Shown piece by piece: positions 1 to 14,313 of a stretch of DNA of 54,060 nucleotides. The stretch is from positions 1 to 54,060 of IMG/VR virus record IMGVR_UViG_3300037280_000066, one strand, 5' to 3'. A program made the translations under genes and the position numbers. This stretch comes from a virus (Duplodnaviria; Heunggongvirae; Uroviricota; Caudoviricetes). A model generated the notes under the pieces. The model was given only the letters and a program-made list of their open reading frames with translations. It was not told the origin of the DNA and did no database searches. Within the stretch, counting starts at the first letter, position 1, and each line of letters opens with the position of its first letter.

Positions 1-18
1 ATTGAAATTCAGTAAACA

Positions 19-154
19 AGGGATAGTGCAGAATAGAAGTTCTTCACTTTTAATGACGAGGTTGTGGGTTCGAGTCCCATCATGACAGGCTTTACGCTTG
101 TTGTGTAACTCAATTGGCAGAGTACGATAAAACGTCTGTTCGCTTTCCTTCCCC
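19..154 (+). ncRNA. Y-RNA-like unit 1 (YrlA-type permuted tRNA domain with Lys-like CUUUUAA loop)
   Basis: GGGA/TCCC outer stem and GAATAGA/TCTGTTC inner stem. Cargo: TCA-CTTTTAA-TGA, T arm GTGGG-TTCGAGT-CCCAT, closed acceptor CATGACAGGC/GCTTGTTGTG, D arm ACTC-AATTGGCA-GAGT. Confidence 0.85.
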
Positions 155-163
155 TATAAATAT

Positions 164-294
164 TTACTTGGCAGTACAGTTTAGAGTTACTTCTTGCTGA
201 AAAAGATACTAGCTCAATTGGTTAGAGCATCAACAGTGATATGTTGAAGATGGGGTTCGAGTCCTTTTTACTCTCAACGTTTTTCTCCAAGTAA
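164..294 (+). ncRNA. Y-RNA-like unit 2 (D-anticodon-T arms in canonical order, no acceptor stem)
   Basis: TTACTTGG/CCAAGTAA outer stem. D arm GCTC-AATTGGTTA-GAGC, hairpin TCAACA-GTGATA-TGTTGA, T arm GGGG-TTCGAGT-CCTT. Confidence 0.8.
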
Positions 295-301
295 GCAATT
301 T

Positions 302-372
302 TCCGTAATAGTTTAGTGGAAAAACCTGTGCATATGCATACACAGTCTCTAGTTCAAATCTAGATTACGGAG
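302..372 (+). tRNA. tRNA-like gene A with abnormal 10-nt anticodon loop
   Basis: Acceptor TCCGTAA/TTACGGA, D arm GTTT/AAAC, CTGTG-CATATGCATA-CACAG, T arm TCTAG-TTCAAAT-CTAGA; no encoded CCA. Confidence 0.7.
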
Positions 373-374
373 TC

Positions 375-511
375 ATTGGAAAGTGTAGTTAAGGCATACT
401 TCAAAGGGGACTGTGGGTTGTCAGTTCGAATCTGACCCTTCCGATTATCGGCAGGTAGCTCAATGGTAGAGCAATAGTATAAAAAAGAAGCCTTTACGTT
501 TTTCTTCCAAT
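375..511 (+). ncRNA. Y-RNA-like unit 3 (YrlA-type permuted tRNA domain)
   Basis: ATTGGAA/TTCCAAT outer stem. T arm GTCAG-TTCGAAT-CTGAC, closed acceptor CCTTCCGA-TTA-TCGGCAGG, D arm GCTC-AATGGTA-GAGC, residual anticodon stem ACTGT/ATAGT. Confidence 0.85.
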
Positions 512-532
512 ATTAAGTTTAAAGATTAAAAA

Positions 533-670
533 GCATTAGATAGTGTAGATATCAGTTACTTCCATTCAAAGGAAGAGACAGGGGTTCGAATCCCCTCGTC
601 AGGTCTTATCCTGATGTGGACAAGTGGTTAAGTCGCTTAAAATATACTGAAATCGTTTTTCTTCTAATGT
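533..670 (+). ncRNA. Y-RNA-like unit 4 (YrlA-type permuted tRNA domain)
   Basis: GCATTAGA/TCTAATGT outer stem, GATATCAGT/ACTGAAATC inner stem. T arm AGGGG-TTCGAAT-CCCCT, closed acceptor CGTCAGG/CCTGATG, D arm GAC-AAGTGGTTAA-GTC. Confidence 0.85.
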
Positions 671-677
671 TAGATAT

Positions 678-775
678 CCAGAGGTAATTCAATGGCAGAT
701 GCTTGGCACTATGTCAACTTATGTTGATAGCAACAACGCTAGGTGTATGGAGGGTTCGATTCCTTTCCCTTTGGT
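678..775 (+). tRNA. tRNA-like gene B with greatly extended anticodon arm
   Basis: Acceptor CCAGAGG/CCTTTGG, D-like arm, CTTGGC/GCTAGG enclosing a ~30-nt insert with inner hairpin GTCAAC/GTTGAT, T arm GAGGG-TTCGATT-CCTTT. Confidence 0.65.
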
Positions 776-776
776 T

Positions 777-843
777 TTAGAGATAATTCAGTCTGGTAGA
801 ATGCTTGACGGAGTGGTCGTGGGTTCGAATCCCACTCTCTAAT
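777..843 (+). tRNA. tRNA-like gene C with truncated anticodon arm
   Basis: Acceptor TTAGAGA/TCTCTAA, D arm ATTC-AGTCTGGTA-GAAT, mini-arm CTT-GACG-GAG, T arm GTGGG-TTCGAAT-CCCAC. Confidence 0.7.
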
Positions 844-850
844 TGTAAGT

Positions 851-920
851 TCCAGAATAGCCTAATGGTAGGACACCCTCATTACGGAGGGAAACGTAGG
901 TTCGATTCCTGCTTCTGGTG
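851..920 (+). tRNA. tRNA-like gene D with 6-nt anticodon loop
   Basis: Acceptor CCAGAA/TTCTGG (1:72 mismatch), D arm CCT/AGG, CCCTC-ATTACG-GAGGG, T arm GTAGG-TTCGATT-CCTGC. Confidence 0.7.
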
Positions 921-926
921 TGTAAA

Positions 927-1063
927 GAACATTTAGTAGTGTAGATATCAGTTACTTCCATTATCAGGACGAGAAGGTGGTTTAATTCCATCATCTGGCA
1001 TATACCAGATTAGTTTATTGATAAAACACGTAAAATACTGAAATTGATTTTCTCTAAATGTTC
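927..1063 (+). ncRNA. Y-RNA-like unit 5 (permuted tRNA domain, degenerate T and D loops)
   Basis: GAACATTTAG/CTAAATGTTC outer stem; 5' arm identical to unit 4. T arm GGTGG-TTTAATT-CCATC, acceptor ATCTGG/CCAGAT, D arm GTTT/AAAC. Confidence 0.8.
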
Positions 1064-1075
1064 AAAAAGTTTTCA

Positions 1076-1205
1076 ATTGTATAGGACAGTGCAGACTGTG
1101 GTTACTTCGGTTAAATAAAATTCTTATAAAATTTTTAAAGGTGGTTCAAATCCATCGAATCCCTTAAATGGGAACAAACCATAGCCGTTTTACTTCCTGT
1201 ACAAT
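1076..1205 (+). ncRNA. Y-RNA-like unit 6 (anticodon-like arm + T arm + small hairpin)
   Basis: ATTGTATAGGA/TCCTGTACAAT outer stem, GACTGTGGT/ACCATAGCC inner stem. AAAATT-CTTATAA-AATTTT, GGTGG-TTCAAAT-CCATC, TCCC/GGGA. Confidence 0.8.
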
Positions 1206-1220
1206 GATATAAGTTTAAAT

Positions 1221-1287
1221 TTTGGGTAGTGTTAGGTAAAGGGTTACTTCATTGGCGAAAAAACACCCTTCCTGCTTTTCTCCCAAA
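1221..1287 (+). ncRNA. Y-RNA-like unit 7 (minimal, scaffold only)
   Basis: TTTGGG/CCCAAA outer stem; TAGTGTTA..GTTACTTC and GCTTTTCT motifs; ~14-nt cargo. Confidence 0.75.
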
Positions 1288-1303
1288 TAAAGTTTCAAAT
1301 CTT

Positions 1304-1372
1304 GTTTGGTAGTGTATTTGAGAGTTACTTCAACTTTAAATGATAAAATACTCTCAAAGTTTTTCTCCAAAC
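1304..1372 (+). ncRNA. Y-RNA-like unit 8 (minimal, scaffold only)
   Basis: GTTTGG/CCAAAC outer stem; perfect inner stem TTTGAGAGT/ACTCTCAAA; short AT-rich cargo. Confidence 0.78.
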
Positions 1373-1391
1373 TAAAAATTACATAAAACAC

Positions 1392-1538
1392 TTGGGAAGT
1401 GTAGAAGTCGGTTACTTCAAATAAATAATTATAAGAATATGGGTAGCCAATGAGCTACGATTGAATCAAAAGTTACATAAAACAAATTGTAATAAAAGCA
1501 GGGCATAAGCCCAATAGCCGAATTCGATTTTCTCCCAA
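1392..1538 (+). ncRNA. Y-RNA-like unit 9 (non-tRNA, multi-hairpin cargo)
   Basis: TTGGG/CCCAA outer stem, GAAGTCGGT/GCCGAATTC inner stem. Hairpins GTAGC/GCTAC, TTACA/TGTAA, GGGC-ATAA-GCCC. Confidence 0.75.
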
Positions 1539-1554
1539 TAAAATTTATAAACCT

Positions 1555-1640
1555 TTAGGTAGTGTAAGAGTGGGTTACTTCAAAAATTTATTTATAATAT
1601 GAATCTGTGAAAACTTATACCCATTCTGCTTTTCTCCTAA
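1555..1640 (+). ncRNA. Y-RNA-like unit 10 (short AT-rich cargo)
   Basis: TTAGG/CCTAA outer stem; inner stem AGAGTGGGT/ACCCATTCT; both conserved motifs present. Confidence 0.75.
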
Positions 1641-1641
1641 T

Positions 1642-1740
1642 AAAAATTATAATATCATTTTAATAATTGAACAAAAATTGGAAATCTGCAAGTATTTTCA
1701 AGGCTTCTCTAGAGATTATTAAAATGATATTGTAATTTTT
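1642..1740. repeat. 26-bp inverted repeat enclosing 47 nt
   Basis: AAAAATTATAATATCATTTTAATAAT (1642-1667) vs ATTATTAAAATGATATTGTAATTTTT (1715-1740); the one difference is a U-G pair on the + strand. Confidence 0.85.
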
Positions 1741-1750
1741 TAAGTTTAAT

Positions 1751-1896
1751 AAGTCATTTAGTAGTGTAGATTAGAGTTATATCTTTCCCCGTTATATGTG
1801 GGGAAATAGCTTAATTGGTAGAGCGTTGAGTGTGAAAACTCAAAGGTGAGGTTCGAGTCCTTATTTAGTCTCTTATTGATTTTCTCTAAATGATTT
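1751..1896 (+). ncRNA. Y-RNA-like unit 11 (tRNA domain opened at the T-arm/acceptor junction)
   Basis: AAGTCATTTAG/CTAAATGATTT outer stem. Closed acceptor TTTCCCC/GGGGAAA, D arm GCTT-AATTGGTA-GAGC, TTGAGT-GTGAAA-ACTCAA, T arm GTGAGG-TTCGAGT-CCTTAT. Confidence 0.8.
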
Positions 1897-1916
1897 AAAA
1901 ATATGCAAAAAAAGTA

Positions 1917-1946
1917 TTGACAATACATATCCGTATAGGTTATACT
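1917..1946 (+). promoter_or_regulatory. SigA-type promoter of the Ro60 gene
   Basis: TTGACA-N18-TATACT with an upstream A-tract. Confidence 0.7.
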
Positions 1947-2016: not shown

Positions 2017-3498
2017 ATGTCAAAGTTTAATCAAACAGCAAGAGAAGAAAAGTTACAAACCACTAATAAGTCAGGTGTTCCTGCTTATGCAATGGCTGAG
2101 AAAGACAAGTTAGTAACACAAGTACTTACATCTTTATTCAATGAAAAGAAATACTATGGTGATAACTCAAAAGAGATTATCCAAACAGTAAAATCAATTC
2201 TTGAACATGATGCAAAGTTCATTGCTAACCTAGCCCTATTTGCAAGAAATGAAATGCATTTGAGAACTATTTCACATGTATTAACATCAGAACTTGCAAA
2301 TCATCCAAATGGTAAGCAGTATGCTAGAGCAACAATCAACAAGGTTGTTGAAAGAGTTGATGATATGTCAGAAATCTTGGCTTATTCATTAGACAAATAC
2401 TCAAAGCCTATCGCAAATTCCATGAAGAAAGGTTTAGTAGATGCTTTCTTAAGATTTGATGAATACTCTCTTGCAAAGTACAACAAAGACAGTAAGGAAA
2501 TCAAACTTAAAGATATCCTTTGCTTAACTCACCCAAGACCTACTACTACAGCACAAAGCGATATGTTCAAGAGATTGATGGAAGGTAACCTTGAAGTACC
2601 AAAGACTTGGGAAACTGAGTTGTCTGCTAAGGGTAATACTAAGGCAGTATGGGAAAACTTGATTACTGAAAAGAAACTTGGCTACATGGCTATGATGCGT
2701 AACCTTCGTAACATAATCAAATCAGGAGCTTCGAATATGAATGAAGTTTATTCTTTCTTAGCAAATGAGGAAAGAGTATTAAAGAATAAGCAGTTACCTT
2801 TCAGATATTACTCAGCATACAAAGTGTTGACAAATGAAGGTCTTGCTACTTCAAAGATACTTGATACATTAGAAACTGCTTTAAAGTTAAGTTGTAAAAA
2901 CGTTCAGCCTTTAAGTGGTAAAACACTTATTGCAGTTGATACTTCTGGCTCAATGTCAAGTCCTGTTAGTGCTAAAAGTGATATGACTTGCGTAGAAATT
3001 GGTATACTTATGATGGCAATGGCAAATTACATCTGTGATGATTCAATCTCTGTTGCTTTTGACACTTCATTAAGAGATATCACATTACCTACAAGCAATG
3101 GTATCATATCTAATGCGAAGAGCGTTAGAAACACTGGTGGTGGTACAGATATTACTCTTCCAATACAACACTTGATTAATAAAAACATCAAAGTTGATAG
3201 AATCATTATGTTATCTGATAATGAAATCAACTGTGGTTGGGACTCAGGTAGAAGTGGTGGATGGGGTAGACAATCACAAACAAGCTGTCAGAACTTGGTT
3301 GACCAGTACAGAAAAACAATCAATCCTGATGTATGGGTTCATGCTATTGACTTACAGGGCTACGGCACTCAACAGTTCAAAGGTAAGAATACTAACATCA
3401 TCGCAGGTTGGTCTGAGAAGACTCTGGAATTCATCTCAATGGCTGAAAAAGGCTTTGGCAACATCGTTTCAACTGTAGAAAGTTACTACTTTAAGTAG
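2017..3498 (+). CDS. rsr: Ro60/TROVE-domain RNA-binding protein with C-terminal vWA domain
   Basis: TROVE motifs (FDEYSLAKYN, L.HP.P, TWETELS, LGYMAMMRNLRN, QLPFRYYSAY) followed by vWA MIDAS DTSGSM; 493 aa. Confidence 0.95.
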   Translation: MSKFNQTAREEKLQTTNKSGVPAYAMAEKDKLVTQVLTSLFNEKKYYGDNSKEIIQTVKSILEHDAKFIANLALFARNEMHLRTISHVLTSELANHPNGKQYARATINKVVERVDDMSEILAYSLDKYSKPIANSMKKGLVDAFLRFDEYSLAKYNKDSKEIKLKDILCLTHPRPTTTAQSDMFKRLMEGNLEVPKTWETELSAKGNTKAVWENLITEKKLGYMAMMRNLRNIIKSGASNMNEVYSFLANEERVLKNKQLPFRYYSAYKVLTNEGLATSKILDTLETALKLSCKNVQPLSGKTLIAVDTSGSMSSPVSAKSDMTCVEIGILMMAMANYICDDSISVAFDTSLRDITLPTSNGIISNAKSVRNTGGGTDITLPIQHLINKNIKVDRIIMLSDNEINCGWDSGRSGGWGRQSQTSCQNLVDQYRKTINPDVWVHAIDLQGYGTQQFKGKNTNIIAGWSEKTLEFISMAEKGFGNIVSTVESYYFK

Positions 3499-3520
3499 TA
3501 GTAACTCTACATACAATATA

Positions 3521-3549
3521 AAGAGAACTCGAAAGGGTTCTCTTTTTTA
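3521..3549 (+). terminator. Rho-independent terminator after rsr
   Basis: AAGAGAACTC-GAAA-GGGTTCTCTT followed by a T-run. Confidence 0.85.
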
Positions 3550-3614: not shown

Positions 3615-3938
3615 ATGGCATATGAAGATTTAACAAATGAGATTGAACAAGTAGAAAAGGAATTGTTGAGTTTGAAAACTCATGTTATGGCAAAAGAAGC
3701 AAGACTAAAAAGGTTAAAATCAAATTGCCCTCATGATTGGACAAAACCAATATTTGACCAAGAATCATATCAGAAAGAATATCTTACAGGTGAATATGAG
3801 ACTCAAGGTATTCACATGTATCCTAAATCAGAGTTTAGGACTGAATACAGGGACAGATGGAGTAGAACTTGTAAGATATGCACAGTAAAAGAATATACCT
3901 ATGAGAGAGTAGCTACACAATATGAACCTAAATTTTAA
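3615..3938 (+). CDS. Hypothetical protein (coiled coil plus Cys/His motif)
   Basis: GAGGTG RBS; CPHDW...CKIC. Confidence 0.7.
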   Translation: MAYEDLTNEIEQVEKELLSLKTHVMAKEARLKRLKSNCPHDWTKPIFDQESYQKEYLTGEYETQGIHMYPKSEFRTEYRDRWSRTCKICTVKEYTYERVATQYEPKF

Positions 3939-3947
3939 GGAGGTCTT

Positions 3948-4217
3948 ATGCTAAACAAACTCAAGAAATTGGTTAAGGAAACAATTCTTATTCACCAGTT
4001 GATAAGATTCAAGGATAAGGCTTGGTGTACTTACACAGAGGAACAGGCACAGACTATCTGGAAGAAGATAGGTAGTCAAATACCTAATCCTTACTACACT
4101 AGGATATCAACAGAGTGGGGACATGTAAAATGTAACCATGGAAAGTCTCAGGCAAGAATGGCATTGTTACATGAAATAGAATCATATATTAAATTTATAG
4201 GAGGTTATCATGAGTAA
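3948..4217 (+). CDS. Hypothetical protein
   Basis: AAGGAGG RBS; operon packing. Confidence 0.65.
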   Translation: MLNKLKKLVKETILIHQLIRFKDKAWCTYTEEQAQTIWKKIGSQIPNPYYTRISTEWGHVKCNHGKSQARMALLHEIESYIKFIGGYHE

Positions 4218-4605
4218 AGATTTAGTAAGCTATAACAGTAATGGATTATCAGAGCAAAAGCCAGAGATAGTGTATGAAACTACCAGAGTTATAAAAAATA
4301 CTGACAATGATATTGAAGTACATAACTTTGTATTTTTTACTATCAGAACTGCTGTGGTAGCTGATAATACAGCAGATGCAGTTTGCAGGGTTGCTAATGC
4401 ATTCAATCTTAGACATGGTGGTGCTTTTTGTCTTGATGTTAATTGTAATAATGGTAGAAGGTGTAAATGGCATATAGTTGTTACTGGAACTAAATATGCT
4501 ATTCAAAAGTTTGTAGCAGAAGCATCAAAGCTTTCTAGTGATTTGGTTTACAATTATCTTGAAGTTGGGGGCAAATGGATACCAGTGTTATCAGGAGATT
4601 GTTAA
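4210..4605 (+). CDS. Hypothetical protein
   Basis: AGGAGG RBS; overlaps previous stop. Confidence 0.65.
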   Translation: MSKDLVSYNSNGLSEQKPEIVYETTRVIKNTDNDIEVHNFVFFTIRTAVVADNTADAVCRVANAFNLRHGGAFCLDVNCNNGRRCKWHIVVTGTKYAIQKFVAEASKLSSDLVYNYLEVGGKWIPVLSGDC

Positions 4606-12084: not shown

Positions 12085-12849
12085 ATGAAATTTGATTTTC
12101 CAGATGATGTAAAATGGTTAGACCATAGAACTATTTTATTAGCAGTAACAGGAAGCACAGCCTATGGTACAAATACACCAACATCTGATAAGGATTATAA
12201 AGGGGTTTGTATTCCACCAGAAGATTACTATTATGGCTTACATACATTTAATGATTACAACACAACAGGCAGTAAAAATTGGAAGAATACGAAAGATGAT
12301 GTTGATGTTTCTATCATGCATGTTAATAAATTTGTAATGGATTGCATGGCAGGAGTTCCAAACAACATTGAAATCTTATTCACTAATCCTGAACATATTT
12401 TAAAATGTAACTATTTTGGTAAAATCTTAATCAAAAATAGGAGAGATTTTTTATCAAAAGCATTAAAGAAAAAGTTTGGTGGATATGCTAATGGTCAAGT
12501 TGCTTTATTAAAAACCAAAAAAAGCAATGGTACAGGCAGAGTTGACCTTATTGAGAAATATGGTTATGATACAAAATTTGGTAGCCATGCAGTAAGACTT
12601 TTGACTTCTGCAATTGATATATTAGAGACAGGTAATTTTACTACTTACAGACCTAATAGACAAGAGCTTTTAAATATTCGCAATGGTAAATTTACCTTAG
12701 ATGAATTACTCTTGTATATTGAGAAGCTAGATAGGGAAATGCAAGAAGCTTGTGAAAAATGCAAGGTACTACCTGAACTTCCAGACTATGATAAGATTAA
12801 TAAATGGTTGATTGAATTAAATAAAGAAGCTATGGAAAAAATGTGGTAA
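12085..12849 (+). CDS. Pol-beta-family nucleotidyltransferase (RlaP/YcgL-like)
   Basis: GSTAYGTNTPTSDKDYKG; PNNIEIL; YDTK..HAVRLL; LLNIRNG. Confidence 0.85.
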   Translation: MKFDFPDDVKWLDHRTILLAVTGSTAYGTNTPTSDKDYKGVCIPPEDYYYGLHTFNDYNTTGSKNWKNTKDDVDVSIMHVNKFVMDCMAGVPNNIEILFTNPEHILKCNYFGKILIKNRRDFLSKALKKKFGGYANGQVALLKTKKSNGTGRVDLIEKYGYDTKFGSHAVRLLTSAIDILETGNFTTYRPNRQELLNIRNGKFTLDELLLYIEKLDREMQEACEKCKVLPELPDYDKINKWLIELNKEAMEKMW

Positions 12850-12912: not shown

Positions 12913-14313
12913 ATGAATTTTGAAACTAAAAGTATAGATATTAAAATACCAACACCTGTAAGTTATGTGCTAAATGTACTATTTAATAATAATCATAAAG
13001 CATATGTTGTAGGTGGATGTGTCAGAGATAGTATATTAAGAAAGAGTCCTAAAGATTGGGATGTTTGTACATCTGCAACACCAGAAGAAGTTATTGCTAT
13101 GTTCAGGTCTAAAGACTATGCTGTTATTGAAACTGGTCTTAAACATGGTACAGTTACAGCTATGGTTGGTGATATGCCTATAGAAATAACTACTTTTAGA
13201 GTTGATGGTGAATATTCAAATGGTAGATGCCCTGATGATGTAAAATTTGTATCAGACCTTAAGGAAGATTTGAGCAGGAGAGATTTTACAATTAACGCTA
13301 TGGCATATAACTACGCAGAAGGATTAATTGATTTGTTTGATGGTGTTAGTGACTTAGGACAAGGTATTATTCGTTGTGTAGGAAATGCAAATGAACGCTT
13401 TCAGGAAGATGGTTTAAGAATGCTTAGAGCTATACGTTTTTCTGCTAGATTTGGATTTAAGATAGAAGATAACACTTACACAGCAATACAATACAATAAT
13501 GAATTGATTAACAAATGTAGTGCTGAAAGAATTAGGGATGAACTTAGCCAGATTATTATATGTTCTCCTAGTGGACTAAAACAAATGTTTGTAACAGGAT
13601 TATTACAACATATACTGCCAGAACTTGTTAAGACAATGCCCTGCAAACAAAACAATGAATATCATAAATATACTGTAGGAAACCATATTCTTAAGACTAT
13701 GGAATGCATTGATAATGATTTAGCTCTTAGATTAACTATGATGCTTCATGACATTGCTAAACCACCATGTAAGACAAAAGATATACATGGTGTTGACCAT
13801 TTCTATGGTCATAATCAAATGGGAGCAGATATGGCAGTAGAAATTCTAGGTAGATTAAGATATGAAAATCTTATCATTATGAAAGTTAGAGATTTAATAC
13901 TATATCATGATGCAGAGATTCATGACAACATAAAGTCTGTAAGAAGATGGTTAAACAGAATAGGTGAAGAGCGTTTTAGAGAGTTGATTAAGGTTAAGGT
14001 TGCAGATATTTTTGGTCAAAATGAAGACTTCTTCTTTGAAAGAATGAATAAGTTTTTAGAAATTGGTGTATTGATTGATGAAGTTATTGAAAAGAATCAA
14101 TGTTTTAGTAAGAGAGACTTGGCTATCAATGGTAGAGACTTGATGGATGCAGGATATCCACAGGGAAAAATGATTGGTTTTATAATTGATGCTTTGGTTG
14201 ATAAAGTAATTGAAAATCCAGAGTATAATACAAAAGAAAAACTCTTGGAGATTGTGCCAACTATAAGAGGATTTCGTAGATTAACTGGTGTTATAGAGGA
14301 AGGAATGAAATAA
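12913..14313 (+). CDS. cca: tRNA nucleotidyltransferase (CCA-adding class II) with HD domain
   Basis: VGGCVRD, DWD, EITTFR, RRDFTINAMA, EDGLRMLRAIRF, LHDIAK. Confidence 0.9.
   Translation: MNFETKSIDIKIPTPVSYVLNVLFNNNHKAYVVGGCVRDSILRKSPKDWDVCTSATPEEVIAMFRSKDYAVIETGLKHGTVTAMVGDMPIEITTFRVDGEYSNGRCPDDVKFVSDLKEDLSRRDFTINAMAYNYAEGLIDLFDGVSDLGQGIIRCVGNANERFQEDGLRMLRAIRFSARFGFKIEDNTYTAIQYNNELINKCSAERIRDELSQIIICSPSGLKQMFVTGLLQHILPELVKTMPCKQNNEYHKYTVGNHILKTMECIDNDLALRLTMMLHDIAKPPCKTKDIHGVDHFYGHNQMGADMAVEILGRLRYENLIIMKVRDLILYHDAEIHDNIKSVRRWLNRIGEERFRELIKVKVADIFGQNEDFFFERMNKFLEIGVLIDEVIEKNQCFSKRDLAINGRDLMDAGYPQGKMIGFIIDALVDKVIENPEYNTKEKLLEIVPTIRGFRRLTGVIEEGMK

What the first reader, a model, noticed from the sequence alone, without database searches (positions are those of the whole stretch)
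302..920. Four stand-alone tRNA-like genes, each with intact acceptor and T arms but a different broken anticodon arm
Seen: genes at 302-372, 678-775, 777-843 and 851-920 keep 6-7-bp acceptor stems, T8-A9, D loops with GG and TTCRA T loops. Their anticodon arms have a 10-nt loop, a ~30-nt structured insert, a 3-bp/4-nt stub and a 6-nt loop. None encodes CCA. Random decay would not be expected to hit mainly the anticodon arm four times. Inference: non-decoding tRNA mimics, either RNase P/RNase Z punctuation marks that release the Y units from a polycistronic transcript, or nuclease-proof elbow mimics matured by the phage CCA enzyme at 12913.
Basis: partly seen in the sequence, partly recalled or inferred. 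Interest (0 to 1): 0.75.

Follow-up and report, generated by a model that had tools for sequence, protein, structure and literature searches.

The report
Decoding-dead tRNA genes in phage Y-RNA array
Four genes inside a phage's long row of Ro60-partner (Y) RNA genes keep the whole body of a tRNA but have a ruined anticodon arm; they descend from ordinary tRNA genes and are probably still cut out by tRNA-processing enzymes, but it is not settled whether they are kept for a non-decoding job or are simply decaying.

Summary
At 302-372, 678-775, 777-843 and 851-920 there are four tRNA-shaped genes with intact acceptor, D and T arms and elbow nucleotides. Their anticodon arms are aberrant in four different ways: a 10-nt loop, a 30-nt insert in the loop, a 10-nt stub and a 6-nt loop. 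Three pass the Rfam tRNA model (40-46.5 bits). The fourth, t2, is supported by homology to the phage's own tRNA-Pro(UGG).

They fill gaps in a roughly 12-unit Y-RNA array upstream of a phage Ro60/Rsr gene, 2-6 nt from the Y-RNA ends. In relatives (L132, L016) real CCA-ending tRNAs occupy such gaps. "No CCA" is not distinctive, because none of the phage's 26 real tRNAs encodes CCA.

Anticodon-less tRNA-likes with encoded CCA recur in other phages (L149/L150/L168, L193). This scan has also noted such RNAs in other phages. However, the closest Rsr relatives (L015, L013, L192) have Y arrays with no tRNA-like genes, so punctuation is not obligatory. No orthologues were found, so per-arm conservation could not be tested.

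Best reading (about 0.45): retained, decoding-dead tRNA bodies matured by RNase P, RNase Z and the CCA enzyme. Main rival (about 0.33): young pseudogenes.

The parts
302..372 (+). t1: 71-nt tRNA-like gene. Acceptor 7/7, D stem 4/4, T stem 5/5 with loop UUCAAAU, discriminator G. The anticodon arm is the 5-bp stem CUGUG/CACAG with a 10-nt loop.
   Evidence: RF00005 42.3 bits; own model R1 39.1 bits; ARAGORN calls it tRNA-???; parse.
678..775 (+). t2: 98-nt tRNA-like gene derived from tRNA-Pro(UGG). Acceptor 7/7. The anticodon stem is kept, but its loop is replaced by about 30 nt that form a 7-bp hairpin with a UUAU loop. T stem is rich in G-U pairs.
   Evidence: Alignment to own tRNA-Pro 134596-134668; fold; only 14.5 bits with R1 and no RF00005 match.
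777..843 (+). t3: 67-nt tRNA-like gene, also tRNA-Pro-like. Perfect acceptor, D and T arms. The anticodon arm is reduced to the 10 nt CUUGACGGAG (a 3-bp/4-nt stub at best). It starts 1 nt after t2's discriminator.
   Evidence: RF00005 46.5 bits; R1 43.8 bits with the anticodon arm skipped; alignment A1. An alternative extended hairpin spanning 786-814 is the minimum-free-energy fold.
851..920 (+). t4: 70-nt tRNA-like gene. It has a 5-bp anticodon stem with the 6-nt loop AUUACG, a U1-U72 mismatch and a C11-A24 mismatch.
   Evidence: RF00005 40.0 bits, above the gathering score in the whole-window scan; R1 40.1 bits; ARAGORN tRNA-???.
163..295 (+). Y unit 2, ending 6 nt before t1. It carries an unpermuted tRNA-like module (202-275) with an 8-nt anticodon-type loop.
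   Evidence: Shared 5' and 3' handle motifs; fold; tRNA model match 210-266.
375..511 (+). Y unit 3 (YrlA-like, permuted tRNA module), starting 2 nt after t1.
   Evidence: RF02553 YrlA 34.4 bits, E 3e-5, below the gathering score; fold.
532..671 (+). Y unit 4, ending 6 nt before t2.
   Evidence: Handle motifs; fold.
927..1063 (+). Y unit 5, a paralogue of unit 4 with an identical 5' 26 nt, starting 6 nt after t4.
20..1897 (+). The Y-RNA array as a whole: 11 units in the window, plus one more across the contig ends at about genome 181.72-181.86 kb. Its strong promoter (TTGACA, 17 nt, TATACT, with TG) lies just outside the window at genome 181,883-181,911.
   Evidence: No strong promoter or convincing terminator lies inside 1-1916.
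1917..1946 (+). Sigma-70-type promoter (11 of 12 matches) in front of rsr.
2017..3498 (+). rsr: a Ro60 orthologue with TROVE and Ro60-vWA domains. A terminator-like hairpin follows at 3520-3545.
   Evidence: Pfam PF05731 at 2.5e-32 and PF25045 at 2.6e-11; terminator.
12085..12849 (+). RlaP-family nucleotidyltransferase (RNA-repair associated).
   Evidence: PF10127 at 4.3e-17.
12913..14313 (+). CCA-adding enzyme with an HD domain, the candidate for tailing the CCA-less tRNAs and tRNA-likes.
   Evidence: PF01743 at 6.5e-39, plus PF12627, PF13735 and PF01966.

Best explanation
The four elements are former tRNA genes; t2 and t3 are of tRNA-Pro(UGG) stock. They once belonged to a mixed tRNA/Y-RNA operon next to the phage rsr gene. 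They lost decoding after the phage came to rely on a separate, complete set of 26 tRNAs. Their tRNA body (acceptor/T minihelix and the D/T elbow) has been retained.

They are probably transcribed with the Y RNAs as one precursor of about 1.9 kb, from the promoter just upstream of the window. RNase P would cut at their 5' ends and RNase Z after the discriminator. Those cuts would also fix the 3' end of the upstream Y RNA and the 5' end of the downstream Y RNA, which lie 2-6 nt away. The released 67-98-nt tRNA bodies would be tailed by the host or phage CCA enzyme. With no usable anticodon loop they stay out of translation.

Shown: the anatomy, the context, the descent from tRNA, and the existence of analogues elsewhere. 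Inferred: co-transcription, cleavage, CCA addition, and any selective value.
For: 1. The bodies are as intact as those of working tRNAs. Acceptor stems are 7/7, 7/7, 7/7 and 6/7; T stems are 5/5; T loops are canonical; and U8, A14, G18, G19, G53-C56, A58 and C61 are invariant. Scores of 40-46 bits are reached even though the anticodon arm contributes nothing. GC content is 38-50% against 31.9% for the genome.

2. Every non-Y filler in the tightly packed array is such an element. No unrecognisable filler of about 70 nt is left over apart from 1646-1749, so the four-of-four pattern is not simply ascertainment.

3. The geometry matches relatives that have real tRNAs. In L132 (Rsr 62% identical), CCA-ending tRNAs alternate with Y units with spacers of 3-8 nt. 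L016 is similar. Here the spacers are 6, 2, 6 and 6 nt.

4. t2 and t3 differ from tRNA-Pro(UGG) and from each other by pair-preserving changes in the acceptor stem (pairs 1-72, 2-71 and 7-66) and in the T stem.

5. Independent phages keep anticodon-less tRNA-likes that do have an encoded CCA and perfect stems. L149/L150/L168 have two, interleaved with Y RNAs upstream of rsr (61 nt with no arm; 66 nt with a 4-bp/4-nt stub). The few differences among the three phages fall in unpaired positions. L193 has a 59-nt armless element with CCA, scoring 48.6 bits.

6. One strong promoter lies upstream, and there is no strong internal promoter or terminator.

7. Precedent: M. smegmatis YrlA is cleaved by RNase P and receives CCA in vivo (PMC4201824). 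The phage encodes a CCA enzyme, and all its tRNAs need CCA addition.
Against: - No orthologues were found in any collection, so selection on the body in the anticodon-less state is not demonstrated.
- The pair-preserving changes could all date from when these were working tRNAs.
- The three closest Rsr relatives have Y arrays with no tRNA-like element. Most Y-Y junctions here also lack one. Y RNA release therefore does not need them.
- Three of the four are in tandem, which punctuation does not explain.
- Each has a different lesion, with no common design.
- t4 also has acceptor and D-stem mismatches. t2 has a weak T stem and fails both covariance models.
- Related arrays contain relics that look truly dead: L016 652-714 has no CCA, no GG in the D loop and a UUGGAUU T loop; L132 4337-4408 has a 6-nt loop and no CCA among neighbours that end in CCA.
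- There are no expression or end-mapping data.
Confidence: 0.45

Rival explanations
1. They are young tRNA pseudogenes with no function. Redundant decoders were left behind in the Y-RNA operon after the phage consolidated its tRNA set at 133.8-139.2 kb. Each was killed by a different accidental lesion and has not yet been eroded or deleted.
For: - The phage has a complete separate tRNA set, including two tRNA-Pro(UGG) genes, so t2 and t3 are redundant.
- There are four unrelated lesions.
- t4 has extra mismatches at 1-72 and 11-24. t2 has a G-U-rich T stem and fails the covariance models.
- Scores are below those of all 26 real tRNAs: 40-46 against 51-72 bits.
- The closest relatives lack any tRNA-like in the array.
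- Relics that look dead exist in L016 and L132.
Against: - All four lesions fall in the 17-nt anticodon arm. By position alone, four random hits would do so with a probability of about 0.003.
- No element in the array shows body decay.
- Elbow nucleotides are invariant and GC content is well above the genome background.
- The genome is compact and leaves only 1-7-nt spacers around these elements.
- Analogues in other phages keep an encoded CCA and perfect stems.
Confidence: 0.33
2. They are free-standing tRNA mimics whose main job is in trans. Stable, CCA-tailed tRNA bodies would occupy or signal to a tRNA-binding factor. Candidates are a host toxin that attacks the tRNA body or its 3' end, the phage Ro60 particle, or the RlaP/CCA/ligase repair enzymes. 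Having no anticodon loop, they would be immune to anticodon nucleases and invisible to the ribosome.
For: - The three in tandem (t2-t4) fit raising the dose better than punctuation does.
- The window carries a dense RNA-repair set: Rsr, RlaP, a CCA enzyme with an HD domain, and a Pnkp-like kinase/phosphatase/ligase.
- In the array, elements with an open acceptor end lack a normal anticodon loop, while at least one permuted Y unit (Y1) shows a 7-nt anticodon-type loop but has a closed acceptor.
- One analogue (L149 4196-4256) carries G3-U70, A73 and CCA, the alanine identity set.
- Other anticodon-less tRNA-likes with CCA occur away from rsr (L193). Unchecked notes from this scan report more of them in other phages.
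Against: - No partner has been identified.
- None of the four here carries a recognisable anticodon-independent identity set; there is no G3-U70 and no long variable arm.
- Four genes would have to compete with the whole cellular tRNA pool.
- The four anticodon-arm replacements share no motif, so there is no sign of a common ligand surface beyond the tRNA body.
- There are no conservation data.
Confidence: 0.15
3. One or more of them still decode, or look broken only because of assembly error. For example, t4 could be a normal tRNA with one base missing from the contig.
For: t4 lacks only one loop base. The contig's overlapping ends differ by a 1-nt indel in an A run, so single-base indels do occur in this assembly.
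Against: - t4's loop is not a homopolymer. Adding a base at either end gives no standard U33/R37 loop for an isotype the phage lacks, and t4 also has the 1-72 and 11-24 mismatches.
- The defects of t1, t2 and t3 are +3, +23 and -7 nt relative to a 17-nt arm, which no sequencing error explains.
Confidence: 0.04

Closest known systems
YrlA-type bacterial and phage Y RNAs (Rfam RF02553; Chen et al. 2014, PMC4201824)
   Same: Both are tRNA mimics encoded next to rsr that keep acceptor-like, D and T arms but cannot decode. M. smegmatis YrlA is cut by RNase P and gains CCA in vivo.
   Different: In YrlA the tRNA module is fused to the Ro60-binding stem, which takes the place of the anticodon stem, and the acceptor is usually closed. 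The four elements here have open acceptor ends, no Ro-binding handle motif, and lie between Y units rather than inside them.
mascRNA and menRNA, the tRNA-like elements at the 3' ends of MALAT1 and MEN-beta (PMC8457004, PMC11693755)
   Same: Both are small tRNA-shaped RNAs with a reduced anticodon arm. In mascRNA, excision by RNase P and RNase Z matures the neighbouring non-coding RNA, and the released piece is CCA-tailed and is not used in translation.
   Different: mascRNA and menRNA are eukaryotic nuclear lncRNA elements, with one per transcript. No processing data exist for the phage elements.
tRNA-like parts of the murine gammaherpesvirus 68 TMERs (PMC4337559; the role of RNase Z is from my own knowledge)
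   Same: Both are virus-encoded, non-decoding tRNA-like units placed directly upstream of other small RNAs in one transcript. In the TMERs they are separated from those RNAs by tRNA-processing enzymes.
   Different: TMERs belong to an animal virus, have polymerase III promoters inside the tRNA-like unit, and have miRNA hairpins as neighbours.
Bacteriophage T4 RNAC and RNAD (species 1 and 2 RNAs) from the T4 tRNA region (PMC3014915)
   Same: Both are stable small phage RNAs transcribed from within a phage small-RNA gene cluster (the tRNA region in T4), with unknown function.
   Different: The T4 RNAs are larger, are not linked to rsr or Y RNAs, and I did not compare their sequences here.
Ordinary phage tRNA genes and tRNA pseudogenes (Rfam RF00005)
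   Same: t1, t3 and t4 score above the family cut-off. t2 and t3 are paralogues of the phage's tRNA-Pro(UGG). The flanks resemble those of the phage's real tRNAs, with a U after the discriminator and a TGTAA trailer.
   Different: None has a 5-bp stem with a 7-nt anticodon loop, so none can decode. Unlike typical relics, their bodies show little or no decay.

Membership tests
Canonical tRNA (RF00005) | A 7-bp acceptor stem stacked on a 5-bp T stem, with a T-loop of the form UUCRANY. | tested here: met
   t1, t2 and t3 have 7/7 acceptor pairs and t4 has 6/7. All T stems are 5/5. The loops are UUCAAAU, UUCGAUU, UUCGAAU and UUCGAUU.
Canonical tRNA (RF00005) | A D arm with G18 and G19, plus U8 and A14 for the elbow and core. 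| tested here: met
   These positions are invariant in all four. D stems are 4/4 in t1 and t3 and 3/4 in t4. t2's D stem is as weak as that of the functional tRNA-Pro paralogue.
Canonical tRNA (RF00005) | A 5-bp anticodon stem with a 7-nt loop carrying U33 and a purine at 37. | tested here: not met
   The anticodon regions are a 10-nt loop, a 30-nt insert, a 10-nt stub and a 6-nt loop.
Canonical tRNA (RF00005) | A score at or above the curated gathering cut-off of 29 bits. | tested here: inconclusive
   t3 scores 46.5, t1 42.3 and t4 40.0 bits and pass. t2 gives no match.
YrlA / Y RNA (RF02553) | 5' and 3' ends that pair into the Ro60-binding handle. In this phage clade that means 5' AGUGUAG...GUUACUUC and 3' UUUUCUC. 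| tested here: not met
   The motif scan finds the handle in the Y units only. None of the four contains it.
YrlA / Y RNA (RF02553) | A match to the covariance model. | tested here: not met
   There are only 15.6- and 16.2-bit matches across the t2/t3 and t3/t4 junctions. This is the tandem-tRNA false-positive type described in PMC4201824.
YrlA / Y RNA (RF02553) | Encoded within a few kb of rsr. | tested here: met
   The elements lie 1.1-1.7 kb upstream of rsr (2017-3498), on the same strand.
tRNA-like processing module (mascRNA / TMER / t-element type) | Directly abuts another functional RNA in the same primary transcript. | tested here: inconclusive
   Spacers to the Y-unit ends are 2-6 nt. 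A single transcript is inferred only from promoter and terminator scans.
tRNA-like processing module (mascRNA / TMER / t-element type) | Cleaved by RNase P and RNase Z, then CCA-tailed. | not testable with these tools
   The substrate features are present: the acceptor/T minihelix, U at -1 and U after the discriminator. No cleavage data exist.
tRNA pseudogene | Homology to a functional tRNA plus an inactivating lesion. | tested here: met
   t2 and t3 align to tRNA-Pro(UGG) at 134596-134668. All four have lesions.
tRNA pseudogene | Neutral evolution, meaning body decay and no conservation in relatives. | tested here: inconclusive
   There is little body decay, but no orthologues were found for a rate test.
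tRNA gene with a group I intron | An intron of 200 nt or more with a group I core in the anticodon loop. | tested here: not met
   The t2 insert is 30 nt. No intron family matched in 1-2100 at E up to 10.
tmRNA tRNA-like domain / alanine minihelix | G3-U70 with A73. | tested here: not met
   None of the four has G3-U70; t2 has G4-U69. The analogue at L149 4196-4256 does have G3-U70, A73 and CCA.

The most novel reading that the evidence does not exclude
These four genes belong to a wider, undescribed class of phage 'anticodon-less tRNAs'. Members would be tRNA bodies that tRNA enzymes mature and CCA-tail, and that are selected never to decode. They would work in trans with the Ro60/Y-RNA and RNA-repair machinery. 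For example, they could act as decoys or sensors for host defences that recognise the tRNA body or its 3' end, or as cofactors of the phage Ro60 particle.
Probability: 0.18. Interest if true: 0.8.

Novelty: new variant of a known kind. Interest (0 to 1): 0.55.

Why it matters
Y RNAs that mimic tRNA are known, and so are phage tRNA clusters. This locus shows the two as one evolving system. Rows of Y RNAs are interleaved with real tRNAs in some phages, with CCA-ending anticodon-less tRNA-likes in others, and here with four decoding-dead tRNA bodies.

If the bodies are maintained, phages would be using the tRNA processing pathway (RNase P, RNase Z, CCA enzyme) to manufacture non-translational RNAs. 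That is the same logic as mascRNA and the herpesvirus TMERs, in a bacterial virus with a large RNA-repair arsenal.

The locus also gives a simple test system. Fifteen small RNAs come from one roughly 1.9-kb operon, and the processing sites are predicted to the nucleotide.

If the four are only pseudogenes, the locus still documents how a mixed tRNA/Y-RNA operon is converted into a pure Y-RNA operon.

Tried and rejected
- DNA search of the array against 50,697 phage records: no match.
- Rsr-based searches: the best relatives are only 59-70% identical in Rsr, and none has orthologues of t1-t4.
- The single metagenome scan, with an 18-mer shared by Y units 4 and 5 and by L132: 20 hits. None has a Y-handle context, and the tRNA model matched only once, far from the motif, so I read them as chance matches.
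- Scans of viral contigs with the aberrant anticodon arms of t4 and t1: only chance hits with no tRNA-like context, none matching t4 or t1 beyond the searched motif.
Only L023, L038 and L096, which carry several matches each, were real arrays.
- The genome search 'relatives': not available for a virus record.
- My own regex and pairing scanner for counting aberrant versus canonical tRNA shapes in rsr loci against random phage loci: too noisy for statistics because of many false positives and mis-registered D arms. I used it only to find examples.
- t2 as an intron-bearing tRNA, and the t2 insert as a repeat or mobile element: rejected. The insert is 30 nt and unique in the genome.
- Coding potential: only spurious ORFs of up to 51 aa.
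- A Ro-binding handle hidden in t2's long arm: no motif found.
- Base-pairing between the aberrant loops and the conserved Y motif: none by inspection.
- Literature: I found no description of anticodon-less tRNA-like genes in phage Y-RNA arrays.
Full report
CONTEXT

The window is the first 54 kb of a 182,060-bp IMG/VR phage record. Its two ends overlap by 127 of 128 nt, so the region of interest continues across the contig ends.

Positions 20-1897 are a tight array of Y-RNA-like units. All share a 5' handle (AGUGUAG...GUUACUUC) and a 3' handle (UUUUCUC) closed by covarying stems. A twelfth unit and a strong promoter lie just upstream, at genome 181.72-181.91 kb. The promoter reads TTGACA, 17 nt, TATACT, with TG.

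Two units give sub-threshold YrlA matches of 34.4 and 29.3 bits. Downstream come a second promoter (1917-1946), rsr (2017-3498; TROVE and Ro60-vWA domains) and a terminator-like hairpin (3520-3545). No strong promoter or convincing terminator lies within 1-1916. A single precursor of about 1.9 kb is therefore the simplest reading, but it is an inference.

The window also encodes RlaP, a CCA-adding enzyme with an HD domain, and a Pnkp-like kinase/phosphatase/ligase. The nearest cellular Rsr proteins are from Acetivibrio and Clostridium, so the host is probably a member of the Clostridia (inference).

THE OBSERVATION

Three of the four elements match the Rfam tRNA model well above its cut-off of 29 bits:
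- t3, 777-843: 46.5 bits
- t1, 302-372: 42.3 bits
- t4, 851-920: 40.0 bits

They also match a model I built from the phage's own tRNAs, at 43.8, 39.1 and 40.1 bits. In each alignment the anticodon arm is skipped or shortened.

t2 (678-775) fails both models (14.5 bits). It still has a 7-bp acceptor stem, a canonical T loop and GG in the D loop. Its 5' half closely matches the phage's tRNA-Pro(UGG) at 134596-134668, including an exact 14-nt run.

- t1: a 5-bp stem with a 10-nt loop.
- t2: the anticodon stem is kept, but its loop is replaced by 30 nt that fold into a 7-bp hairpin.
- t3: a 10-nt remnant.
- t4: a 5-bp stem with a 6-nt loop.

U8, A14, G18, G19, G53-C56, A58 and C61 are invariant in all four. 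There is no coding potential.

First, the absence of encoded CCA is shared by all 26 genuine tRNAs of this phage, so it says nothing. Second, the damage is not purely in the anticodon arm: t4 has U1-U72 and C11-A24 mismatches, and t2 has a G-U-rich T stem.

WHERE THEY COME FROM

t2 and t3 are paralogues of tRNA-Pro(UGG). Their acceptor and T stems differ from it, and from each other, only by pair-preserving changes. Pairs 1-72, 2-71 and 7-66 are changed on both sides.

Relatives show the ancestral layout. In L132 (Rsr 62% identical), CCA-ending tRNAs (Met, Glu, Trp, Gln, Pro, Cys, Tyr) alternate with Y units, separated by 3-8 nt. L016 (63%) is similar. Here the spacers between the tRNA-likes and the Y-unit ends are 6, 2, 6 and 6 nt. 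t2, t3 and t4 are separated from each other by 1 and 7 nt.

The four are therefore descendants of decoders from a mixed tRNA/Y-RNA operon. This phage now keeps its working tRNAs in a separate cluster at 133.8-139.2 kb.

ARE THEY MAINTAINED OR DECAYING?

For maintenance:
- All lesions fall in the anticodon arm.
- The array has no other unassigned filler of about 70 nt, so this is not merely ascertainment.
- The bodies are as good as those of low-scoring real tRNAs once the arm is discounted.
- GC content is 38-50% against 31.9% for the genome.
- Independent phages carry anticodon-less tRNA-likes that look plainly functional. L149, L150 and L168 have two, both with perfect stems and an encoded CCA, interleaved with Y RNAs and a real tRNA-Lys upstream of rsr. 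The few differences among the three phages lie in unpaired positions. L193 has a 59-nt armless element with CCA.
- Notes from this scan report further anticodon-less tRNA mimics in other phages. I treat these as leads, not evidence.

For decay:
- The four lesions share no design.
- t2 and t3 are redundant with two working tRNA-Pro genes.
- The pair-preserving changes may predate the loss of the anticodon.
- Related arrays contain relics that look dead: L016 652-714 and L132 4337-4408 both lack CCA among CCA-ending neighbours.
- No orthologue exists in any collection I could search, so the decisive per-arm conservation test could not be done.

WHAT THEY WOULD DO

The retained parts are exactly those read by RNase P, RNase Z and the CCA enzyme: the acceptor/T minihelix and the elbow (established knowledge). 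All four have U at -1 and U after the discriminator. t3 and t4 share the TGTAA trailer seen after several real tRNAs.

M. smegmatis YrlA is cut by RNase P and CCA-tailed in vivo (PMC4201824), so the pathway has a precedent for Ro60-linked RNAs. Cleavage at the ends of the four elements would set the neighbouring Y RNA ends.

Punctuation cannot be the whole story, however:
- Only two of about eleven junctions between Y units carry these elements.
- Three of the four are in tandem.
- The closest relatives (L015 at 70%, L013 at 66%, L192 at 63% Rsr identity) have pure Y arrays.

A separate role in trans for the released tRNA bodies remains open. There is one suggestive pattern. In this array, elements with an open acceptor end lack a normal anticodon loop, while at least one permuted Y unit (Y1) shows a 7-nt anticodon-type loop but has a closed acceptor. 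The two unpermuted tRNA modules inside Y units have 8-nt loops. On this reading nothing in the operon looks able to enter translation.

VERDICT

I put about 0.45 on retained, decoding-dead tRNA bodies processed by the tRNA pathway. I put 0.33 on young pseudogenes, 0.15 on a primary role in trans, and 0.04 on residual decoding or assembly error.

Relative to published work (YrlA, mascRNA, TMERs, T4 RNAC/RNAD), this is a new variant of a known kind. I found no paper describing stand-alone anticodon-less tRNA-likes in phage Y-RNA arrays.

Noticed in passing
window 1-127 and L009 4873-5000 (genome 181,933-182,060): The two ends of the 182-kb record overlap by 127 of 128 nt, differing by one A in a homopolymer. 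The genome is therefore circular or terminally redundant, and the Y array runs across the junction. A further Y unit lies at about L009 4665-4800, and the array promoter at L009 4823-4851.
   Followed up: yes
L009 3887-4660 (genome about 180,947-181,720): A gene-free stretch of about 770 nt carries three near-identical strong promoters (TTGACA, 17 nt, TAAGAT, with TG) at 3905, 4032 and 4126, and another at 4445. They may be early promoters or may drive unannotated small RNAs.
   Followed up: no
window 202-275 and 1800-1871: Y units 2 and 11 enclose an unpermuted D arm, anticodon arm and T arm, with the Y handle taking the place of the acceptor stem. Both have 8-nt anticodon-type loops. Other units (1, 3, 4) have the permuted YrlA order.
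   Followed up: partly
L149 4196-4260 (also L150 and L168): A 61-nt tRNA-like with no anticodon arm carries G3-U70, A73 and an encoded CCA, the alanine identity set also used by tmRNA. It lies between two Y RNAs upstream of a phage rsr gene.
   Followed up: partly
L149 4480-4900: In this array the motif ACCAAA follows the terminal stem of two Y units as well as the tRNA-like at 4196-4256. It looks as if these Y RNAs also end in an acceptor-like stem plus NCCA.
   Followed up: no
L038 (- strand) / L167 577-700: A CCA-ending tRNA-shaped gene has its anticodon arm replaced by a complete Y handle closed by a short loop. This is a circular permutation of YrlA with an open acceptor end.
   Followed up: no
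L016 5395-5595: A tRNA-like gene with a normal 5' part and a CCA-ending T arm and acceptor stem is interrupted by an insert of about 130 nt after the anticodon-arm region. It lies just upstream of the last Y unit and rsr.
   Followed up: no
L015 9746-9966 and L016 3335-3466: A HEARO RNA (94 bits) lies next to an HNH/RRXRR gene in L015. A skipping-rope RNA (61 bits) lies in the tRNA/Y region of L016.
   Followed up: no
window 749-780: The T arm of t2, followed by CCUUUGGUUUU, scores as a weak intrinsic-terminator-like site. If it were active it would attenuate transcription into t3, t4 and the distal Y units.
   Followed up: no
window 1646-1749: This AT-rich stretch of about 100 nt is the only part of the array not assigned to a Y unit or a tRNA-like. 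No promoter was called on the + strand there.
   Followed up: no
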